From: a virus
DNA: 64,000 bases
Reading direction: 5' to 3' (one strand)
IMG/VR virus record: IMGVR_UViG_3300005573_000052
The notes under the pieces are model-generated. The model saw only the letters and a program-made list of their open reading frames with translations, had not been told where the DNA came from and ran no database searches. Positions 32,408 through 40,283 of the stretch are shown here, one piece after another (positions within the stretch are counted from its first letter, which is position 1; every line of letters starts with the position of its first letter). A program made the translations under genes and the position numbers.

Positions 32408-32479
32408 GGCCCATTCGATAATCAGCTATGTCGGCGTGTTTTCACCACGCAGTAGGGAGGGCGGCACTCCCATGGGCTA
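32408..32479 (+). tRNA. tRNA-Glu(UUC)
   Basis: GGCCCAT/ATGGGCT; GCGTG-TTTTCAC-CACGC; T-loop GGCGGCA. Confidence 0.8.
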
Positions 32480-32480
32480 A

Positions 32481-32555
32481 GCCTCAGAGATGTTGACAGA
32501 TGCATGTCAGTCCGCCAGACTGAATGACCCGGAGCGTTGCCGGGCTGGGGCACCA
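32481..32555 (+). tRNA. tRNA-Gly(GCC)
   Basis: GCCTCAG/CTGGGGC; TCAGT-CCGCCAG-ACTGA; CCA. Confidence 0.8.
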
Positions 32556-32560
32556 ATTTA

Positions 32561-32641
32561 TCCCTCGTTAGCTCAGTCGGGTTAAGAGCAGCCCGCTTTT
32601 AACGGGTAGGTCGCGTTGTTCCCAACACGCACGGGGGACCA
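32561..32641 (+). tRNA. tRNA-Lys(UUU)
   Basis: GCCCG-CTTTTAA-CGGGT; irregular T arm; CCA. Confidence 0.85.
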
Positions 32642-32709
32642 TTCCTGTTAGACAGATTTCGGACCAGCGGTCCATAAACCTCTAACGACTGGGTGTATAT
32701 TACGGCGAC

Positions 32710-33708
32710 ATGTCCAACAAACGTCGCACAAGCGCCATATGGCAAATGCCATCAGATCAGTTCAAGACCATCGTTGCTCAGAGTTTTACTCTGACAGAGG
32801 TTCTTTCGCATTTCTCAATGCGCAACGTAGGTAGTAACAATCTCACCCTCAAGCGTCGCATCAAGGAGGAAGGAGTAGACATCTCTCATTTTAGACGAAA
32901 GGGTGGTGGTCGAAAGGGTCCGCGAGGCATGACACTCGAAGAGTGTATGTCCACCGTATTTATCGAAGGAAAGGTGGGATGTAAAAGCTCCGTGAGGCGT
33001 TACCTGAGAAGGTTCAAGTTGGTAGAAGAAAAATGTGCCATATGCTCACTGGGGCTAGAATGGAACGGCCAACCTCTTACACTTCAATTGGATCATATTA
33101 GTGGAGATTCTACGGACGACAGAGTGGAAAACTTGCGTTGGATATGTCCCAACTGCCACAGCCAGACAGATACCTACACCGGTAAGGCGAACAAAGGCCG
33201 GGTAGGGGCTAAAATCTTTTCACTTCCTAAAAGGACCGTTCCCACTGCCAACGAAACTTTGGTTATTACCGACAACGGAGAGACAAACATAGTCAAACGG
33301 GCTTCAATGACACGGGCCGAGATTAACGCCAAACACCGTAGCCATTGGCCATCCAAGGAGACATTGAGTGCCAAGGTATGGGAGAAGCCTCTCACTCACC
33401 TGAAAGACGAGTTTGGGTTCAAATCTATTACCTCGTTAAAGCAAATGATCAAGTTGTATCAAATACAAGCACCTCCTGTCGGATTCTGGGCTCGTTTGAA
33501 AGCCGGTTGGTCACGCGACCAAGCTATCAACCCTCCCACGCAGGCTCCGAAAAGATGCCTTCGTAAATTCACTGACGATCAAGTGCGTGAAATTCGCTCT
33601 CGCCTCGATAAAGGAGACAAACCGGCGGCTCTGGCTAGGGCCTATGGATGTAGCCACAAGACGATGCGAGATATACGAGACCGTCAACGATACGTTTCCG
33701 TCGTCTAA
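32710..33708 (+). CDS. HNH homing endonuclease in the tRNA island
   Basis: CAIC...LQLDHISGDSTDDRVENLRWICPNCH; HTH-like C-terminus. Confidence 0.85.
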   Translation: MSNKRRTSAIWQMPSDQFKTIVAQSFTLTEVLSHFSMRNVGSNNLTLKRRIKEEGVDISHFRRKGGGRKGPRGMTLEECMSTVFIEGKVGCKSSVRRYLRRFKLVEEKCAICSLGLEWNGQPLTLQLDHISGDSTDDRVENLRWICPNCHSQTDTYTGKANKGRVGAKIFSLPKRTVPTANETLVITDNGETNIVKRASMTRAEINAKHRSHWPSKETLSAKVWEKPLTHLKDEFGFKSITSLKQMIKLYQIQAPPVGFWARLKAGWSRDQAINPPTQAPKRCLRKFTDDQVREIRSRLDKGDKPAALARAYGCSHKTMRDIRDRQRYVSVV

Positions 33709-33772
33709 TCTTTCCAGTCCCGGAGGCCATTCCTAGCGCGACCTTTCCAAGGCGTGATGAATCCCGAGTTTT

Positions 33773-33846
33773 GACGGATTAGCCAAGCGGCGAGGCCACC
33801 CTCTGCAAAAGGGTTCAGACCAGTTCGACTCTGGTATCCGTCTCCA
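33773..33846 (+). tRNA. tRNA-Cys(GCA)
   Basis: ACCCT-CTGCAAA-AGGGT; TTCGA; U73-CCA. Confidence 0.92.
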
Positions 33847-33938
33847 CCTTTCCCCCTCCGTAAGATGTCCCTTAGCAGGGTTTAAGATACGGCGTGCGTG
33901 CTGACAAGGCAAAGCGCAAGGGATGCGAGGAAAATTTT

Positions 33939-34018
33939 GGGGCACGGGGCTGCTTGGCGTGGCCACCTCTTTTGCACAGAGGTTAATCAGCAGGTTTCGA
34001 TCATCTGGTGCTCCACCA
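33939..34018 (+). tRNA. tRNA-Ala(UGC)
   Basis: G3-U70; CCTCT-TTTGCAC-AGAGG; CCA. Confidence 0.85.
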
Positions 34019-34140
34019 ATTTATGCGGCCTCGGATAAACGGGGTTCCATGGTAGCTTGAAGCGGGGGTGCACTCCTGCCATTGGCCATGAGAGCCGTTA
34101 CGTCCGGCATGGGTGAAAATCCTTGAGTCCGCCCAATTTA

Positions 34141-34215
34141 GCCTCAGAGATGTTGATGGACACATGCGAGTTTTCCAAACTTGACTACTCGGATCGTTAC
34201 CGGGCTGGGGCACCA
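34141..34215 (+). tRNA. tRNA-Gly(UCC)
   Basis: same acceptor stem as Gly(GCC); loop TTTCCAA; CCA. Confidence 0.85.
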
Positions 34216-34302
34216 TCGTGTATTAGACCGTTAAAGACGCGGGGCAGATTGTAAACCTGTCGCCTTCGGGCCGACTCAGAGCGTTACTGAGATACACGAC
34301 CA
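34216..34302 (+). tRNA. tRNA-Tyr(GUA)
   Basis: loop TTGTAAA; long variable arm; CCA. Confidence 0.85.
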
Positions 34303-34308
34303 TTTCAC

Positions 34309-34381
34309 TGGCAGATAGCTTAAGTAGTGAAGCCCGCGATTGATAATCGCGAGAGTATCAGTGCAAATCTGATTCTGCCAA
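34309..34381 (+). tRNA. tRNA-Ile(GAU)
   Basis: CGCGA-TTGATAA-TCGCG; no encoded CCA. Confidence 0.85.
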
Positions 34382-34389
34382 ATTTTCCA

Positions 34390-34464
34390 CAGGACCGACA
34401 GGTATGTTATCGGCGAGCACTCCAAACGCTACGCGAGTTAGTTAAATTCTAACCGGTCCTGCCA
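34390..34464 (+). tRNA. tRNA-Trp(CCA)
   Basis: CAGGACC/GGTCCTG; loop CTCCAAA. Confidence 0.8.
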
Positions 34465-34465
34465 T

Positions 34466-34537
34466 GGAGTCCGGTCTAGTGGCCAGTTTCCCCTGAAGAG
34501 GGAGACGGACGCGATGCGATCTCGCGGGGCTCCACCA
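34466..34537 (+). tRNA. tRNA-Phe(GAA)
   Basis: TTCCC-CTGAAGA-GGGAG; CCA. Confidence 0.8.
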
Positions 34538-34545
34538 TTTTACGT

Positions 34546-34628
34546 TGCAGTCACAAGCCGAATGACGCTGAGGGTCTTCATACGTCCCGCGAAAGCTATG
34601 CCGAGTGAAACTCTCGGGGCTGCATCCA
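34546..34628 (+). tRNA. tRNA-Met(CAU) with extended variable region
   Basis: loop TTCATAC; GC-GAAA-GC extra hairpin; CCA. Confidence 0.7.
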
Positions 34629-34632
34629 ACTT

Positions 34633-34708
34633 TCACTCCGTGGGACATTGGTTGTCCGCCAGTTTTGGGAACTGGATCAAGTGTGTCCGATTCACACCGG
34701 GGTGACCA
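34633..34708 (+). tRNA. tRNA-Pro(UGG)
   Basis: CCAGT-TTTGGGA-ACTGG; CCA. Confidence 0.85.
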
Positions 34709-34783
34709 TCTTGAGGGAAACGCGGGTTCAACCCCCGCCGGGGCCACGGGGCCTCGTCGTCTAGACAGGTTAAGAAACCCTCT
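34709..34783 (+). ncRNA. circularly permuted, anticodon-less tRNA-like RNA
   Basis: 3' half (GAGGG-AAAC-T arm-CGGGGCCA) precedes 5' half (GGCCTCG-D arm-CCCTC). Confidence 0.75.
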
Positions 34784-34792
34784 AACTTTTTT

Positions 34793-34870
34793 GGCGCGTT
34801 AGCTCAGTCCATTCAGAGCAGCCCGTTGTCTGCGGGAAGGCCATGGGAGAGAAGCCCATACGCGCCGCCA
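34793..34870 (+). tRNA. tRNA-Asp(GUC)
   Basis: loop TTGTCTG; T-loop AGAGAAG; G73-CCA. Confidence 0.8.
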
Positions 34871-34874
34871 TTTT

Positions 34875-35032
34875 CTCCTGTGTCCGTCTGATTATCCCGT
34901 GCGTAGGGACTCAGCGCTAGTTGACAGCAACGCCACCGCTTTGTGGCTTAGGCTTAGCTAAACCCAATGCGTCCCGTAGTAGGTGAAAATTAGCTCTCAT
35001 CGCCCGGGCTACGCGATTGGTAGACACAGGAG
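34875..35032 (+). ncRNA. tmRNA mRNA-like-domain-like RNA
   Basis: 10-bp closing helix, pk1-like pseudoknot, UAGUU|GAC resume context, 12-codon frame. Confidence 0.5.
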
Positions 35033-35046
35033 GATTCATTTCGTTT

Positions 35047-35135
35047 GGGGGATTAGCTCAGTTGATTAGAGCGCTTCGTTTACACCGAAGAGGCCGAATA
35101 GGTTCACGCGGGTTTGAATCCTGCATCCCTCACCA
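35047..35135 (+). tRNA. tRNA-Val(UAC) with long variable arm
   Basis: CTTCG-TTTACAC-CGAAG; 17-nt variable region; CCA. Confidence 0.85.
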
Positions 35136-35141
35136 TTTTAT

Positions 35142-35238
35142 TGCTCAGACCCAGATGGCATGTTAGCTGGCTTCGACTGTTAATCGAATGCGGGGAGATA
35201 GTCTCAAACCAACGGTGGGGCGGCACCACCCTGAGCAG
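35142..35238 (+). tRNA. tRNA-Asn(GUU) with long variable insertion
   Basis: TTCGA-CTGTTAA-TCGAA; T-loop GGCGGCA; G73. Confidence 0.75.
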
Positions 35239-35239
35239 C

Positions 35240-35315
35240 GGGAGACGAATCGTCTAGTGACGATGTTTGCACGACACGCAAAATCAGTAGGGTGCAATCC
35301 CCTAGTCTCCCACCA
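35240..35315 (+). tRNA. tRNA-Val(GAC)
   Basis: TTTGC-ACGACAC-GCAAA; CCA. Confidence 0.8.
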
Positions 35316-35321
35316 TTTTAC

Positions 35322-35400
35322 CGGTCTGTAGGGTAGCCTGCCTTATCCCGCTTGCATGGGGTGCAAGAAATCGCCAGTTGAAATCTGGCCAGACCGACCA
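35322..35400 (+). tRNA. tRNA-Pro(GGG)
   Basis: CTTGC-ATGGGGT-GCAAG; C1-G72, A73. Confidence 0.85.
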
Positions 35401-35406
35401 TTTTAT

Positions 35407-35483
35407 CAGCACGTAGCTCAGCCTAGCAGAGCGATTGCCTCGGGTGCAATAGGTCGGGGATGCGATTTCCTCCGTGCTGACCA
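35407..35483 (+). tRNA. tRNA-Pro(CGG)
   Basis: ATTGC-CTCGGGT-GCAAT; CCA. Confidence 0.88.
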
Positions 35484-35487
35484 TTTC

Positions 35488-35640
35488 CGGGCTCGCAAGG
35501 GTCCGTTGTCATTCCACCTACGATGCAGCTTTACCGCTGACGCAACCGGAGGCAACAACGGAATGCACTTCCAGTGTCGTCCAAGCCTCGATAGGCGGCA
35601 CTCGAACAGGCAGGATACTACTGCGGGAGTCGTAGACATT
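35488..35640 (+). ncRNA. candidate structured ncRNA
   Basis: multiple hairpins plus long-range CTACGA/TCGTAG pairing; followed by a T-run. Confidence 0.4.
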
Positions 35641-35644
35641 TTTT

Positions 35645-35769
35645 GGGCCGTCAGTCGGCGCGCAACGGGGACAAACCCACCGGTAATCAACCCGGTCGCG
35701 ACCGGCACTAGCGAGCCGTGCGATTGCCTACGGGAGCGCGCGGAGAGGATGCGATTTCCTCGCGGTCCA
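35645..35769 (+). ncRNA. alanyl-acceptor tRNA-like RNA (tmRNA TLD-like)
   Basis: GGGCCGT/GCGGTCC with G3-U70 and A73; no D stem; 3-nt linker to T arm. Confidence 0.6.
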
Positions 35770-35781
35770 CTTTTGTTTTAC

Positions 35782-35888
35782 CGTGCTGAAGTTCAGCGTA
35801 AGGCCCGGGTTGATCACCGGGAGATAACGCGAGGAGAACACTCCCCGGAAGGAGAAGGTAGGAGGTGAAATACCTCTCGGCACGACCA
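35782..35888 (+). ncRNA. tRNA-like RNA with 8-nt anticodon loop and 39-nt insertion
   Basis: CGTGCTG/CGGCACG-A-CCA; CCCGG-GTTGATCA-CCGGG. Confidence 0.55.
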
Positions 35889-35949
35889 ATTCCGCGCTCA
35901 TTCTGGAAAGTCTGTAAAGCCGACGCGGGCAAAGTATCGGCGCTTTCAT

Positions 35950-36026
35950 GGTCCTCTGATGTAAATGGATAAGCATACCGCCCTTTGAAGGCGAGAGTCA
36001 CGTTTGCCAAGCGTGGGGGACTGCCA
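35950..36026 (+). tRNA. tRNA-Gln(UUG)
   Basis: CCGCC-CTTTGAA-GGCGA; G73-CCA. Confidence 0.8.
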
Positions 36027-36033
36027 ATTTTAC

Positions 36034-36109
36034 TGCTCCGTGGGATAACATCTAGTCCACACCCCTCTGAAGGGTCGAGGCGTCCGTGAGACTCGGGCCG
36101 GGGCAGCCA
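36034..36109 (+). tRNA. tRNA-Gln(CUG)
   Basis: ACCC-CTCTGAA-GGGT; G73-CCA. Confidence 0.8.
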
Positions 36110-36113
36110 TTTT

Positions 36114-36189
36114 GGGCCGTTAGCTCATTCAGCAGAGTATCGCTATGGCATAGCGGAGGTGGGGAGAGCAAAGCTCCCACGGTCCACCA
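36114..36189 (+). tRNA. tRNA-Ala(GGC)
   Basis: G3-U70; TCGCT-ATGGCAT-AGCGG; T-loop AGCAAAG. Confidence 0.85.
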
Positions 36190-36190
36190 A

Positions 36191-36445
36191 TTTCAAGCAG
36201 GAGAGCGTTCGCGGCAGAGATTGCTACGGCCATCTGTCGAGGAAGTTCGCGCCAGAAAAGAAGCCGACTGGGAGGGTGGCTTGGCTTGACCGCCGTCATT
36301 CTTACCGATGACCACCACCCGCCAACACCACATGGTATCTGCAACCCGAAAGCGCCCGAGGGTAGTTCTTCCCGCCAGCAGGGCATGGTTGGGGCTCAGA
36401 CAAATGAACGCATGAAACAGAAGCGCGGCTACGTCCACTTGAAAA
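36191..36445 (+). ncRNA. rnpB: RNase P RNA-like ribozyme with reduced specificity domain
   Basis: GAGGAAGTTCGCGC (CR-I) pairs with ACAGAAGCGCGGCTA (CR-V); P1, P2, P3, P5, P15 (GGGTAG) and P18 can all be drawn. Confidence 0.8.
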
Positions 36446-36451
36446 TTTTAC

Positions 36452-36538
36452 GGATCGGTCCCTATAGCAGCGATTAGCCCTGACTCTTAATCAGGTTGGC
36501 GAAAGCCTACGACGTGGGTGCGAGTCCCACCCGGTCCA
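36452..36538 (+). tRNA. tRNA-Lys(CUU) with long variable arm
   Basis: CCTGA-CTCTTAA-TCAGG; GGC-GAAA-GCC arm. Confidence 0.8.
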
Positions 36539-36539
36539 C

Positions 36540-36613
36540 GGTAGAGACAGCAAGAGCTGAGGACGGTTTCATAAGCCGTGCCGAGTAGGTTGCAATTACC
36601 TCCTCTACCACCA
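36540..36613 (+). tRNA. tRNA-Met(CAU)
   Basis: ACGGT-TTCATAA-GCCGT; CCA. Confidence 0.75.
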
Positions 36614-36617
36614 TTTT

Positions 36618-36693
36618 GCTGACCAAGCATAGACAGCGATGCACCACATTGGTAATGTGGATATGATGGGCGCACATCCCATGGTCAGCTCCA
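36618..36693 (+). tRNA. tRNA-Thr(GGU)
   Basis: CCACA-TTGGTAA-TGTGG; T-loop CGCACAT. Confidence 0.85.
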
Positions 36694-36698
36694 TTTTT

Positions 36699-36786
36699 GG
36701 GGTTGTGGCGTAACTGGATAGCCGTGCGAGGTCGAGAGCCTCGTGGTCGTGAGACCGTAGGGGTCCGAGTCCCCTCTTCCCCACCA
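36699..36786 (+). tRNA. tRNA-Leu(GAG)
   Basis: CGAGG-TCGAGAG-CCTCG; variable arm; CCA. Confidence 0.8.
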
Positions 36787-36791
36787 TTTTC

Positions 36792-36866
36792 GGGCGTATG
36801 ACGTAACTGGATAACCGTGCTGAGTTTAGACCTCAGATTTTGCAGGTCCGAGTCCTGCTACGCCTA
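36792..36866 (+). tRNA. tRNA-Leu(UAG) with short variable loop
   Basis: CTGAG-TTTAGAC-CTCAG; variable loop ATTTT. Confidence 0.8.
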
Positions 36867-36867
36867 C

Positions 36868-36942
36868 GGGGTCATCGAATAAGAGTAGTTCACCAGATTC
36901 TCAATCTGGAAATCGGAGTGCGTTGGCTCCGTGGCCCCACCA
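36868..36942 (+). tRNA. tRNA-Glu(CUC)
   Basis: CCAGA-TTCTCAA-TCTGG; CCA. Confidence 0.8.
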
Positions 36943-36947
36943 ATTTA

Positions 36948-37030
36948 CGGCTAGTGGATAAGGGAAACTGGTTACAACCGCGAAACTTAAAATTTCGTAT
37001 CCGCTGTGGGTCCGAATCCCACCTAGCCGA
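36948..37030 (+). tRNA. tRNA-Leu(UAA)
   Basis: CGAAA-CTTAAAA-TTTCG. Confidence 0.8.
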
Positions 37031-37035
37031 CTTTC

Positions 37036-37127
37036 GGGCGTATGGTGTAACAGAAACACGGAGGTCTCAAAAGCCTCTTTTGGGGCTCGCCCCCATATTT
37101 ACGGAGCATTGCCGTATACGCCCACCA
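37036..37127 (+). tRNA. tRNA-Leu(CAA)
   Basis: GAGGT-CTCAAAA-GCCTC; long variable arm; CCA. Confidence 0.82.
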
Positions 37128-37132
37128 TCTTT

Positions 37133-37269
37133 CAGCGGTAGCATATCGGTCAATGCTGTCCTCGCAACATGGGACTAGTCTGCCCAGCCTCCAAAGGCCA
37201 CGGATTAAGGTTGGGCAGAGAGACGCCCGCAAAGAGCGTTGAAGTGGGGTTCAAATCCCCTCACGCTGA
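37133..37269 (+). ncRNA. tRNA-like RNA with ~65-nt two-hairpin insertion
   Basis: CAGCG/CGCTG acceptor, D arm GCAT/ATGC, T arm GGGG-TTCAAAT-CCCC; 8-nt anticodon loop. Confidence 0.55.
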
Positions 37270-37350
37270 ATTCACCTATAGGGTTGACGGGCGGTAGCGC
37301 AGTTTGGCGACACCGGGTCGCTCGCAAACTGCTCCGATACCCTCCTTTTC

Positions 37351-37425
37351 GCGCATGTAGCTCAAAGGAAGAGCAGAGGACTCATAATCCTTTGGTTGAG
37401 ATGTCGGAATTCTCCGTGCGCACCA
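37351..37425 (+). tRNA. tRNA-Ile2/Met(CAU)
   Basis: GAGGA-CTCATAA-TCCTT-TGGT resembles Ile2-type anticodon arms; CCA. Confidence 0.8.
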
Positions 37426-37429
37426 TTTT

Positions 37430-37507
37430 GGTTCCTACTCCTAGATCAGCGAGGACCTCGACTCGTAATCGAGAACTGAGGCGGCTGCGATGCCGCAGGA
37501 ACCTCCA
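37430..37507 (+). tRNA. tRNA-Thr(CGU)
   Basis: CTCGA-CTCGTAA-TCGAG; U73-CCA. Confidence 0.8.
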
Positions 37508-37526
37508 TCTTTTTTTACTTTTTCAC

Positions 37527-37556
37527 TTGACACCGGCCACCCAATCGGGCTATGGT
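37527..37556 (+). promoter_or_regulatory. sigma70-type promoter of the Y RNA-Ro60 unit
   Basis: TTGACA-N18-TATGGT after a T-rich tract. Confidence 0.7.
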
Positions 37557-37584
37557 ATCCGTGTTCATTCTCACTTTCCCTTTT

Positions 37585-37661
37585 GCCGTGGTGCCAGACG
37601 ACCAGTTCCTCGCTGTAATCGACCGGACGAAAGTCCACTCTGGTCGTCGCCTGTTCCCGGC
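37585..37661 (+). ncRNA. Y-RNA-like RNA A
   Basis: GCCG/CGGC and CGACCAG/CTGGTCG stems; TGGTG...TCGCCTGTTCC motif shared with B and C. Confidence 0.7.
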
Positions 37662-37670
37662 AGTTATTTT

Positions 37671-37758
37671 TCTGCGATGGCGTCAGATGACGGTTACTTC
37701 TTCAATCCATAACTGAATCGCCCGCAAGGGCTAACCGTTCTCGCTTGTTCCTCGCAGA
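37671..37758 (+). ncRNA. Y-RNA-like RNA B
   Basis: TCTGCGA/TCGCAGA and ACGGTTA/TAACCGT stems; TGGCG...TCGCTTGTTCC. Confidence 0.7.
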
Positions 37759-37775
37759 TTCTCTTTCTCACTTTT

Positions 37776-37919
37776 GGAGTGGCGTAGAGCTAACCAGTTC
37801 CTCGAATACGGATCGAGAGGTCGGGGTTCAAATCCCCGGTGTCGCTTCGGCGACACTAGTGTAACGGTAGCACGCTTAGTGGTCGCAAGGCCACGCTCTG
37901 GTGCTCGCTTGTTCCCTCC
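37776..37919 (+). ncRNA. YrlA-like Y RNA C with permuted tRNA domain
   Basis: T arm, 7-bp acceptor-like stem capped by cUUCGg, D arm; shared motif; directly upstream of the TROVE gene. Confidence 0.85.
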
Positions 37920-37973
37920 AAATTCATTTCCTCGTTGCGCAGCAATTACGCCGCCGACGATGGCACTAGACCC

Positions 37974-39293
37974 ATGAAGACCAATACAAAATCCCCCCGC
38001 GCCAAAGTGTTTACCCACGAAGGTGCTCCCGCTGCCCACGCCACCGCCAAGCAGCAACTCCGCCGCTCCGTCATGTCCTGCATGCTCTGGGAGTCGGAAT
38101 TCCATGAAAGCGGCGAAGATATCGCCCAGCGAATCGCCTCGCTCGTTGCCAAGTGCAAACCTGAGGACGTGGCACTGATCGCTCGCGAAGCCCGCGAACA
38201 GATGAAACTGCGACATGTCCCGCTGCTCCTCGTGCGTGAAATGGCCCGCCTGCCTTCTCACCGCCCTTACGTGGCCGACACGCTTAACGCCGTCATCCAG
38301 CGCGCCGACGAACTCTCCGAGTTTCTGGCTATCTACTGGAAGTCGGGCAAAGACCAGCCTCTCGCCGCTCAGGTCAAAAAGGGACTGGCTCGGGCCTTCA
38401 CCCGATTCGATGAGTATGCCCTGAGCAAATATGACCGCGCCGGTGATGTCAAACTGCGGGATGCTCTCTTCCTCTGTCATGCCAAGCCGCAGGACAAGAA
38501 GCAAGAACGCCTGTGGAAACGACTCGTCAATGGCGAATTGAAGCCTGCCGGAACTTGGGAAGAGCAGCTTTCCGCCGGTAAGGACAAAAAGGCAGTGTTC
38601 ACCAAGTTGATCAAAGACGGTGAACTGGGCGCTCTCGCCCTGCTCCGCAACCTGCGCGGCATGACCGAGGCGGGAGTTAGCCACGAAATCATCACCCAAG
38701 CATTGGCTGGCATGAAAACCGAGCGGGTTCTCCCGTTTCGCTTCATCTCTGCCGCACGCTACGCCCCCCAGTTCGAGGCCGAATTGGAACAGGCGATGTT
38801 CAAGTGTCTTGAGGGAGTGGACAAGCTGAAGGGCTACACCATTCTGCTTGTGGACGTGTCGGGCTCCATGGATTCACCGATCAGCGCCAAGTCTGACCTG
38901 ACGCGTATCGACGCTGCTTGCGGACTCGCCATCCTATTGCGCGAAATCTGCGAACGGGTGGATATCTGCACGTTCTCCAGCGGGATAGTCGGAGTCCCTC
39001 CTCGCCGAGGATTCGCGCTGCGGGATGCCATCAAGAACTCGCAGCCCCATGCAAGCACCGATCTAGGTAGAGCACTCGATACCCTCAAGTATGGAACGGG
39101 TAAAGATCGCATCGTCGTCATCACGGACGAACAGTCCCATACGGCGGTTAATTCCCCCAAGACCACGGGTTACATGCTCAACGTCGCTTCAGCGGCAAAC
39201 GGAGTGGGTTACGGGGCCTGGAACCATATCGACGGTTGGAGTGAGAGTTGTGTGAAATTCGTGGCCGAGCTGGAGAAGCAAAGCGCCGATTGA
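37974..39293 (+). CDS. rsr: Ro60/Rsr TROVE-domain RNA-binding protein with vWA domain
   Basis: FTHEGAPA, KLRHVPL, IQRADE, FDEYALSKY, TWE, LALLRNLR, LPFRF, LVDVSGSM (MIDAS), VITDEQ. Confidence 0.95.
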   Translation: MKTNTKSPRAKVFTHEGAPAAHATAKQQLRRSVMSCMLWESEFHESGEDIAQRIASLVAKCKPEDVALIAREAREQMKLRHVPLLLVREMARLPSHRPYVADTLNAVIQRADELSEFLAIYWKSGKDQPLAAQVKKGLARAFTRFDEYALSKYDRAGDVKLRDALFLCHAKPQDKKQERLWKRLVNGELKPAGTWEEQLSAGKDKKAVFTKLIKDGELGALALLRNLRGMTEAGVSHEIITQALAGMKTERVLPFRFISAARYAPQFEAELEQAMFKCLEGVDKLKGYTILLVDVSGSMDSPISAKSDLTRIDAACGLAILLREICERVDICTFSSGIVGVPPRRGFALRDAIKNSQPHASTDLGRALDTLKYGTGKDRIVVITDEQSHTAVNSPKTTGYMLNVASAANGVGYGAWNHIDGWSESCVKFVAELEKQSAD

Positions 39294-39316
39294 CCGGGCT
39301 GAAAGGTCAAGTTTAC

Positions 39317-39349
39317 AGAGGGGGCGAACAAGCCTCCTCTTTCTTTTTT
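39317..39349 (+). terminator. intrinsic terminator
   Basis: AGAGGGGG/CCTCCTCT stem plus T tract after rsr. Confidence 0.65.
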
Positions 39350-39351
39350 AC

Positions 39352-39427
39352 GGCTCGTTGCCTCAGTGTTCACAGGAGTGCCTTTGTAGCGCACCATTCG
39401 GCGGTTAAAATCCGCCACGAGCCTCCA
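39352..39427 (+). tRNA. tRNA-Thr(UGU)
   Basis: loop TTTGTAG; GGCTCGT/ACGAGCC; U73-CCA. Confidence 0.75.
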
Positions 39428-39434
39428 TTTTCAC

Positions 39435-39596
39435 GCCCTAGTAGCTCAGGCCCTACCAAATATCGGGTATCAGAAGAGCGCGCTCATTAGTTGGTCACCC
39501 AAGCGAACGGCACTTAGTGAACTCATCAATTGAGGGTTTGCGATGCTGCCGTTCGACAAGCGAGGTCGTCGGTGCCAAATCCGACCTAGGGCTCCA
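39435..39596 (+). tRNA. tRNA with ~65-nt insertion in the anticodon loop and a hairpin in the D loop
   Basis: perfect GCCCTAG/CTAGGGC, GCTC/GAGC D stem, CGCTC/AAGCG, AGGTC, T arm, CCA. Confidence 0.65.
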
Positions 39597-39602
39597 TTTC
39601 AT

Positions 39603-39681
39603 GGTGACAAAGGCAGAAGTAACTCAAAGCGCGGCCCTGTGAAGGCCGTTTAAGCGGGTGTGAGACCCGTTTGTCACCCCA
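39603..39681 (+). tRNA. tRNA-His(GUG)
   Basis: 8-bp acceptor with G-1:C73; CGGCC-CTGTGAA-GGCCG. Confidence 0.88.
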
Positions 39682-39687
39682 ATTCAC

Positions 39688-39764
39688 GCGACACTCGGCA
39701 ACCGAATAGTCACCCTGCTTGCGGAGCAGAATCAGTCCCAGTTTGAATCTGGGGTGTCGCACCA
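39688..39764 (+). tRNA. tRNA-Arg(GCG)
   Basis: CTGC-TTGCGGA-GCAG; CCA. Confidence 0.78.
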
Positions 39765-39772
39765 TTTTTCAT

Positions 39773-39855
39773 GCGAGCGTAGCCGAAGGGAGCTTCTATC
39801 TCCTTCCCCGTAACCGGAGCTGCAAATGGAGGTTCGACTCCTCTCGCTCGTGCCA
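39773..39855 (+). tRNA. arm-swapped tRNA-Arg(UCU)-like
   Basis: anticodon hairpin (loop CTTCTAT) precedes D-like arm (loop AACCGGA); canonical T arm; G73-CCA. Confidence 0.65.
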
Positions 39856-39859
39856 TTTC

Positions 39860-39935
39860 GCGCTGGTCGGCAATGTATAGTCAACCTCGTTTCGACCGAG
39901 AATCAGTGTGGGTTAGAGTCTCACCCGGCGCACCA
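39860..39935 (+). tRNA. tRNA-Arg(UCG)
   Basis: CTCG-TTTCGAC-CGAG; CCA. Confidence 0.8.
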
Positions 39936-39941
39936 TTTCAC

Positions 39942-40022
39942 GCGAACGTATCCCCTCGGTTTCCTAAACCGGCGAAAGGGTAATCGGAATCCATGGAGGA
40001 TCGTCCCCTCTCGTTCGCACCA
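39942..40022 (+). tRNA. arm-swapped tRNA-Arg(CCU)-like
   Basis: TCGGT-TTCCTAA-ACCGG precedes GGGT-AATCGGA-ATCC; A73-CCA. Confidence 0.7.
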
Positions 40023-40099
40023 CTTGAACCCCATGAAGGTTCCACCCGGCGAGCCTCGGACAGAGCGGTTACAGGCCGAATCACAGCGTTAATTTTTAC

Positions 40100-40189
40100 G
40101 GAGAGGTGGCAGAGTGGCCTATTGCACTGAGCTTGAAACTCAGAACAGAGTAATATCTGTCGCGAGTCCGAATCTCGCTCTCTCCTCCA
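40100..40189 (+). tRNA. tRNA-Ser(UGA)
   Basis: CTGAG-CTTGAAA-CTCAG; long variable arm; CCA. Confidence 0.9.
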
Positions 40190-40193
40190 TCTT

Positions 40194-40283
40194 AGAGAGC
40201 CAACTGAACGAGGTTCAGGACTGCTTGGAAAGCAGCTCGGGCCGCGCAAGCGACCTACGGGGCAGCACCGTGACTCTCTGCCA
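40194..40283 (+). tRNA. tRNA-Ser(GGA)
   Basis: CTGC-TTGGAAA-GCAG; G73-CCA. Confidence 0.82.

What the first reader, a model, noticed from the sequence alone, without database searches (positions are those of the whole stretch)
39773..40022. Two tRNA-Arg genes (UCU and CCU) with anticodon and D arms in swapped order
Seen: both have GCGARCG acceptors, GGAGG/CCTCT T stems and CCA. After the 5' acceptor strand comes first an anticodon hairpin with a canonical loop (CTTCTAT at 39793; TTCCTAA at 39961), and only then a D-like arm with loop AAYCGGA (39812; 39982). Known: A20 after G18-G19, and A/G73, are ArgRS identity elements, and both RNAs have them. UCU and CCU are exactly the Arg isoacceptors missing from the canonical set. 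Inference: a functional, topologically rearranged tRNA architecture that standard finders would miss or mis-call. I know of no description of it.
Basis: partly seen in the sequence, partly recalled or inferred. Interest (0 to 1): 0.85.

Follow-up and report, generated by a model that had tools for sequence, protein, structure and literature searches.

The report
Rewired phage arginine tRNA pair
Two genes in this phage's tRNA array very probably encode working arginine tRNAs whose D-loop comes after the anticodon and whose D-stem is built from strands on either side of the anticodon arm, a non-cloverleaf layout that is widespread in phages, missed by a standard tRNA finder and not described in any paper I could search.

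Summary
Both RNAs are real (39773-39855, UCU; 39942-40022, CCU) and the loop order is swapped. The layout, however, is not two swapped hairpins. In 54 aligned homologues, compensatory changes show the anticodon arm nested inside the D-stem, with the D-loop (UARYYGG-N20) as a one-sided bulge on the 3' strand; RNAalifold finds this fold unaided. About 250 distinct relatives occur, nearly all in phages, including cultured Pseudomonas, Vibrio, Streptomyces and crAss-like phages. Searches that left the anticodon free returned only Arg (plus 2 Val); Ile forms were found separately. Position 20 tracks the amino acid (Arg A, Ile/Val U), base 73 fits each synthetase, and the 15-48 Levitt pair covaries, so the displaced loop probably still builds the L-shaped core. 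A related phage has an ordinary tRNA-Arg(UCU) in the same slot. ARAGORN missed 168 of 179 members; one GenBank 'tRNA-Val(AAC)' is a miscalled member. Expression, charging and decoding are inferred, not shown. No paper was found in ten open-access searches. This scan has noted the class on other DNA (42 notes); one note says part of the claim fell on checking, and I could not see which part.

The parts
39773..39855 (+). Rewired tRNA-Arg(UCU), long type (83 nt), G73, encoded CCA
   Evidence: 80.4 bits
39781..39786 (+). RNA1 5' strand of the nested arm: 39781-39783 pairs with 39819-39821 (short extra helix); 39784-39786 pairs with 39808-39810 (D-stem equivalent; third pair is an A.C mismatch in this copy)
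   Evidence: covariation
39788..39804 (+). RNA1 anticodon arm, anticodon UCU at 39795-39797
39811..39818 (+). RNA1 displaced D-loop U13-A14-A15-C-C-G18-G19-A20 (A20 = 39818); Levitt partner U48 = 39827
   Evidence: 15/48 and N20 covariation
39828..39844 (+). RNA1 T arm, canonical loop
39942..40022 (+). Rewired tRNA-Arg(CCU), short type (81 nt), A73, encoded CCA, degenerate T loop
   Evidence: (41 bits)
39952..39980 (+). RNA2 nested arm: CCC 39952-39954 pairs with GGG 39978-39980, enclosing the anticodon arm 39956-39972 (CCU at 39963-39965) and a CGAAA linker
39981..39988 (+). RNA2 displaced D-loop (A20 = 39988); Levitt partner U48 = 39994
39860..39935 (+). Canonical-order tRNA-Arg(UCG) lying between the two rewired genes
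39688..39764 (+). Canonical-order tRNA-Arg(GCG) just upstream; the four Arg genes form one tight block

Best explanation
These are phage elongator tRNA-Arg genes for the rare AGA and AGG codons, built as a connectivity isomer of the cloverleaf. SHOWN by comparison: after U8-A9 the chain runs into the strand that normally follows the D-loop (positions about 23-26), round the anticodon arm, up the strand that normally precedes the D-loop (about 10-13), through an open D-loop (14-20) and then by a short linker to Y48 and the T arm. In the long type a further 2-3 bp helix ties nucleotides 9-11 to the bases just after the D-loop. INFERRED: the same helices stack into the usual L shape (U8.A14, R15.Y48, G18/G19 to the T loop); the transcript is cut out of the array; host ArgRS charges it through A20, C35, U36 and base 73; and it decodes AGA/AGG on the host ribosome during infection. 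Ile and Val versions of the same scaffold serve IleRS and ValRS, which like ArgRS are subclass Ia enzymes. Why phages keep the rewired form is not established; my best guess is that it is a working alternative spread between arrays, favoured where nucleases aimed at the ordinary gene or tRNA miss it.
For: Nested fold: 97.1% of cells paired, 20 of 23 pairs with two-sided changes, 0/500 shuffles as high; found unaided by RNAalifold; about 14, 7, 8 and 3 co-occurring changes on a tree for pairs 11-47, 13-37, 14-36, 10-48 (rough parsimony); three D-stem pairs kept in 141/141 short-type members (the first of the three was half fixed by the pattern). Levitt pair: A15-U48 82, G15-C48 9, crossed 2 among 99 de-duplicated members, p about 1e-10. 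Identity: among members not selected on position 20, 28/28 Arg have A20 and 16/16 Ile have U/C; anticodon-free scans gave 63 long-type and 75 short-type Arg, all A20, plus 2 Val(UAC) with U20 and A73; base 73 is A in 85/85 Ile and A/G/U, never C, in Arg, matching Table 1 of PMC9976931. Context: 134 of 179 lie within 300 nt of another tRNA gene. Related phage L275 has the order His, Arg, Arg(UCU), Arg, Arg(CCU), Ser, Ser like the window, with an ordinary tRNA-Arg(UCU) in the slot of RNA1 and a near-identical rewired CCU gene. Rewired and ordinary copies tend to exclude each other for ACG (p 0.016) and GAU (p 0.011).
Against: For UCU no mutual exclusion with an ordinary copy is seen (10 of 21 loci hold both, p 0.8). 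For these two copies alone, folding energies do not separate nested from local pairing (-19.0 vs -18.9; -20.7 vs -21.8 kcal/mol), and single-strand folding predicts other folds. The two bases that would close a local D hairpin (G12-C, U13-R) are also well conserved (138/141, 134/141), so a triple or a switch there is possible. RNA2's T loop is degenerate. The columns fixed by my search patterns (U8, A9, C12/G38, UAR..GG) are invariant by construction.
Confidence: 0.8

Rival explanations
1. A charged or uncharged tRNA mimic that is not used on the ribosome: a decoy for tRNA-cutting host defences or synthetases, or a regulatory RNA.
For: No direct functional data; some arrays hold both an ordinary and a rewired UCU or GAU gene; a decoy would also keep identity elements and anticodon loops.
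Against: It takes the slot of an ordinary tRNA-Arg(UCU) in a related phage; it is the only AGR reader in this array; the 7/5 acceptor-T branch, 7-nt loop, U33 and purine 37 are kept across ten anticodons.
Confidence: 0.12
2. One reading: two independent hairpins in swapped order (anticodon arm, then a local D hairpin).
For: G12-C and U13-R could close a 7-nt D loop in most members; in RNA2 a 4-bp local hairpin is possible and slightly more stable.
Against: Only 70% of cells paired and one pair with two-sided change; third pair 7/141; variants with compensatory 10-48, 11-47 or 12-38 changes break the local hairpin but keep the nested pairs (L039:252, L232, L136); the L275 orthologue of RNA2 cannot form the 4-bp hairpin.
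Confidence: 0.04
3. A D-armless tRNA with a long variable arm, like mitochondrial tRNA-Ser(AGY/UCU) or a Ser-charged allo-tRNA, i.e. a missense tRNA.
For: Rfam aligns RNA1 in this way; 9/3 allo-tRNAs also carry AGA/AGG anticodons (PMC5389517).
Against: Acceptor/T branch is 7/5, not 8/4 or 9/3; the 'variable' stretch holds A14-R15-GG with Levitt covariation; N20 and base 73 follow the anticodon's amino acid, not serine.
Confidence: 0.03
4. A precursor that is cut and re-joined into an ordinary cloverleaf, as permuted or split tRNA genes are.
For: Permuted and split tRNA genes exist in algae and archaea (own knowledge).
Against: Swapping two internal segments would need several cuts and joins; no bulge-helix-bulge motifs; the pairs of the unspliced form are under compensatory selection.
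Confidence: 0.01

Closest known systems
Canonical bacterial and phage tRNA-Arg (cloverleaf, Rfam RF00005; e.g. the ordinary UCU gene at L275:4401-4475)
   Same: 7-bp acceptor, 5-bp T stem, 5-bp anticodon stem with 7-nt loop, U8, A14, R15-Y48, G18-G19, A20, CCA, position in tRNA arrays.
   Different: D-loop lies 3' of the anticodon arm; D-stem strands flank the anticodon arm instead of forming a hairpin; three-way rather than four-way junction; 79-93 nt.
D-armless mitochondrial tRNA-Ser and the engineered E. coli mini HisT (PMC11551756)
   Same: No D hairpin between acceptor and anticodon arm; shows that E. coli ribosome, EF-Tu and a synthetase can accept a non-cloverleaf tRNA.
   Different: Here the D-loop and D-stem are kept and re-ordered, not lost; natural, phage-encoded, bacterial cytoplasm.
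Allo-tRNAs and irregular tRNAs (Mukai et al., PMC5389517)
   Same: Non-standard tRNAs from metagenomes and phages, some with AGA/AGG or AUA anticodons, missed by finders.
   Different: Allo-tRNAs are 8/4 or 9/3 cloverleaves with long variable arms and mostly Ser/Ala identity; these are 7/5, keep anticodon-matched identity and change the arm connectivity.
YrlA-type Y RNAs and permuted tRNA genes (own knowledge)
   Same: tRNA modules joined in a different order.
   Different: YrlA closes the acceptor and has no anticodon; permuted genes mature into ordinary cloverleaves. Here the ends, CCA and anticodon are normal and only the core is re-ordered.

Membership tests
Canonical cloverleaf tRNA | 7-bp acceptor stem, discriminator, CCA end | tested here: met
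Canonical cloverleaf tRNA | 5-bp T stem directly before the acceptor 3' strand | tested here: met
   RNA2's T loop is degenerate
Canonical cloverleaf tRNA | Anticodon arm with 7-nt loop, U33, purine 37 | tested here: met
Canonical cloverleaf tRNA | D arm as a hairpin 5' of the anticodon arm | tested here: not met
Canonical cloverleaf tRNA | Tertiary core (R15-Y48, U8.A14, G18/G19 to T loop) giving the L shape | tested here: inconclusive
   15/48 covaries; the other contacts are invariant by search design; no 3D data
ArgRS substrate (tRNA-Arg identity) | A20, C35, U/G36, A/G/U73 (PMC9976931) | tested here: met
ArgRS substrate (tRNA-Arg identity) | Arginylated and decodes on the ribosome | not testable with these tools
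   needs charging and reporter assays
Functional tRNA gene | Expressed and processed to a mature RNA | not testable with these tools
Allo-tRNA (Mukai 2017) | 8/4 or 9/3 acceptor/T branch with long variable arm | tested here: not met
   7/5 branch
D-armless tRNA | D stem and D loop absent | tested here: not met
   D-stem pairs and D-loop present in re-ordered form

The most novel reading that the evidence does not exclude
A natural, widespread second secondary-structure class of translating tRNA in bacterial cytoplasm: a strand-swapped isomer of the cloverleaf that reaches the L shape by another chain path, is charged by ordinary ArgRS, IleRS and ValRS, and has not been described.
Probability: 0.62. 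Interest if true: 0.9.

Novelty: new variant of a known kind. Interest (0 to 1): 0.82.

Why it matters
A 2024 paper states that all known bacterial tRNAs are cloverleaves and that it is unclear whether a fundamentally different fold can be used in cytosolic translation (PMC11551756). A natural family of hundreds of members, present in cultured phages of Pseudomonas aeruginosa, Vibrio, Streptomyces and Bacteroides, makes that question directly testable. It would show that tRNA shape does not need cloverleaf connectivity, give a new scaffold for synthetic biology, and mean that phage tRNA inventories are under-counted or miscalled for Arg and Ile (for example the annotated tRNA-Val(AAC) of Streptomyces phage Yaboi), which affects codon-usage and anti-defence arguments about why phages carry tRNAs.

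Tried and rejected
Single-strand folding was uninformative: weak z-scores and mixed folds. BLAST of the window's Arg block against cultured phages found no close relative. No whole genome is held. The scan of prokaryote genomes gave 20 pattern hits, only about 5 real, all on short MAG contigs; plasmids gave none: the class looks phage-borne. The Anabaena trn-operon paper, the non-canonical tRNA review and the allo-tRNA paper do not describe it in the passages searched; the cluster M mycobacteriophage paper was not held. Ten full-text searches found no description; subscription journals and older T5-era tRNA papers are largely outside the library. ARAGORN's alternative cloverleaf (anticodon taken from the UANNNGU linker, giving CCG, AAC, ATC, AAT) was rejected: the call changes from member to member. 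No synthetase or tRNA-modifying enzyme was seen among the 40 longest ORFs scanned. My parser's 'Arg GCG' at 34793 is a mis-parse of an Asp(GUC) gene, and four 'ATA' anticodons are mis-registered UAU loops; both were set aside.

Full report
Setting. The window looks like part of a large phage: ribonucleotide reductase, UvsX-like recombinase, many HNH/LAGLIDADG endonucleases, sugar-modifying enzymes and a TROVE/Ro60 gene, 55% G+C, with an array of more than 35 tRNA-like genes at 32.4-37.5 kb and 39.35-40.3 kb. No whole genome is held. The two RNAs sit in a block His, Arg(GCG), RNA1, Arg(UCG), RNA2, Ser, Ser, the Arg genes 4-8 nt apart.

Observation. ARAGORN finds neither RNA; Rfam scores RNA1 just under its threshold as a D-armless tRNA and does not list RNA2. 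The only canonical-order Arg genes in the window are GCG and UCG, so AGA and AGG (42 and 44 of 11,172 codons in 36 long ORFs, against 264 CGC) would be read only by these two.

Relatives. Loci fetched through the TROVE protein gave a first outside copy (L017:5286). A pattern built from the two copies found 53 hits in IMG/VR, 52 of them tRNA-like. Further scans raised the set to 175 distinct parsed members plus about 75 more. Two sub-types exist: a long one like RNA1 (8-nt 5' connector, 83 nt, mostly Arg) and a short one like RNA2 (7-nt connector, GAAA linker, about 80 nt, Arg and Ile). Cultured carriers include Pseudomonas phage PA11, Vibrio phage PG07 and about 300 Vibrio phage records, Maribacter phage Panino, Streptomyces phages such as Yaboi, and the crAss-like phage tikkala; the records shown have no tRNA annotated there, except Yaboi gt020, annotated tRNA-Val(aac), which is a rewired Arg(UCU). 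ARAGORN missed 168 of 179 members, miscalled 6 and gave the right anticodon for 5. Prokaryote genomes gave about five real hits, all on short MAG contigs, and plasmids none.

Structure. Fifty-four long-type members align without gaps (mean identity about 64%). Mutual information ranks the acceptor, anticodon and T stems first, then 11-47, 13-37 and 14-36 (z about 7). The nested model (9-11 with 47-49, 12-14 with 36-38) has 97.5% and 91.4% of cells paired with 14, 3, 11 and 21 two-sided changes at 11-47, 10-48, 13-37 and 14-36, and RNAalifold predicts it unaided. On a tree built without those columns the changes co-occur about 14, 3, 7 and 8 times (a rough count on short sequences). In 141 short-type members the three nested D-stem pairs are all kept, and the third local pair is kept in 7. 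So the anticodon arm is nested in the D-stem and the D-loop is a bulge on the 3' strand. One point is open: the two bases that would close a local D loop are also conserved, so base triples or a small switch there are possible, and energy alone does not decide for the two window copies.

Mapping on the L shape (inference). In ordinary tRNA the D stem stacks on the anticodon stem, so that strand 39-44 lies in line with strand 10-13, and nucleotide 9 lies beside 23 (own knowledge). The family's chain path 9 to 23, 44 to 10 and 20 to 48 joins neighbours in space and needs no change of shape. The test available here is the Levitt pair: the base at D-loop position 15 predicts the base before the T stem (A-U 87 of 87, G-C or G-G 9 of 9; 82, 9 and 2 crossed after de-duplication to under 75% stem identity, p about 1e-10).

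Identity. The base after GG follows the amino acid. In members not selected on it, 28 of 28 Arg have A and 16 of 16 Ile have U or C. Patterns that left anticodon and position 20 free returned, among tRNA-like hits, 63 long-type and 75 short-type Arg, all with A20, and two Val(UAC) with U20 and A73 (Ile anticodons were excluded from the short-type scans by design and were sampled). Base 73 is A in all 85 Ile and A, G or U in Arg. This matches the published identity sets: Arg A20, C35, U/G36, A/G/U73; Ile A73, U20; Val A73 (PMC9976931). All three synthetases are subclass Ia. This argues for selection on recognition by the cognate synthetase, and against serine-type allo-tRNAs, which are 8/4 or 9/3 (PMC5389517).

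Replacement. L275, from a 191-kb contig, has a near-identical rewired CCU gene with the same odd T loop and the same gene order, but an ordinary tRNA-Arg(UCU) where the window has RNA1. Across 69 loci with eight or more ordinary tRNAs, rewired and ordinary copies rarely co-occur for ACG (0 of 7, p 0.016) and GAU (5 of 26, p 0.011), never for UCG, CCU and UAU (not significant), but freely for UCU (10 of 21, p 0.8). The evidence for replacement is therefore real but mixed. In PA11 an HNH endonuclease gene overlaps the 5' end of the rewired gene, in line with earlier notes of this scan that homing endonucleases travel with it; I did not test that further.

What is shown and what is not. Shown: the genes, their conservation, the nested secondary structure, covariation of one tertiary pair, identity bases that track the anticodon, phage-wide spread, failure of ARAGORN. 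Inferred: transcription, processing (the array has a weak RNase P-like match at 36193-36442), L shape, charging, decoding, and the selective reason.

Novelty. It works like a tRNA-Arg but fails the cloverleaf's defining arm order. PMC11551756 (2024) states that all known bacterial tRNAs are cloverleaves and that arm size is the only diversity among cytosolic tRNAs. Ten full-text searches found no description, but most subscription journals are outside the library. I reached the nested model before reading this scan's notes; these show the class was noted on other DNA at least 42 times, with the same model. They are not independent evidence. One carries the remark that part of the same claim fell on a later check; I could not learn which part, and I hold the odds of 'functional and undescribed' at about 0.6.

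Verdict: real, probably functional, a new structural variant of tRNA; interest 0.82.

Noticed in passing
window 37772-37921 and 37935-39293: A structured RNA with a T-loop hairpin, a closed acceptor-like hairpin and a D-loop-like hairpin in that order, directly before a TROVE/Ro60 ORF; looks like a YrlA-type Y RNA (my reading; no Rfam hit; my motif did not match in the TROVE relatives).
   Followed up: partly
window 36193-36442: Weak match to archaeal-type RNase P RNA (26 bits, E 1.6e-4, far below the gathering score) inside the tRNA array.
   Followed up: no
window 32408-40283: Most tRNAs of the array have degenerate T loops while stems and anticodons are intact; ARAGORN finds 13 of more than 35. 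L275 shows the same trend.
   Followed up: partly
window 35645-35890: Two long tRNA-like units with acceptor and T arm but no clear anticodon arm.
   Followed up: no
window 39435-39596: tRNA-like unit with about 70 extra bases, not parsed by any finder used.
   Followed up: no
L344:4 and L348 (minus strand, from 10713): Rewired tRNAs with Val(UAC) anticodon, U20 and A73: a third amino acid for the class.
   Followed up: partly
L245:32145-32225 (Streptomyces phage Yaboi NC_048730, gt020): GenBank tRNA-Val(aac) is a miscalled rewired tRNA-Arg(UCU); two more unannotated members at L245:36463 (CCU) and L245:20002.
   Followed up: yes
L028:1173, L052, L057, L071, L112, L036:5764: Some members carry an extra small hairpin between the post-D-loop helix and position 48, like a variable arm.
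   Followed up: no
L128:1556-2064 (Pseudomonas phage PA11): HNH endonuclease gene overlaps the 5' end of the rewired tRNA-Arg(UCU); ARAGORN finds no tRNA in this stretch.
   Followed up: no
L131-L241 (CAU members): Rewired CAU-anticodon members with U20 and A73; many have acceptor stems resembling lysidine tRNA-Ile2 (own knowledge), but Met is not excluded.
   Followed up: no
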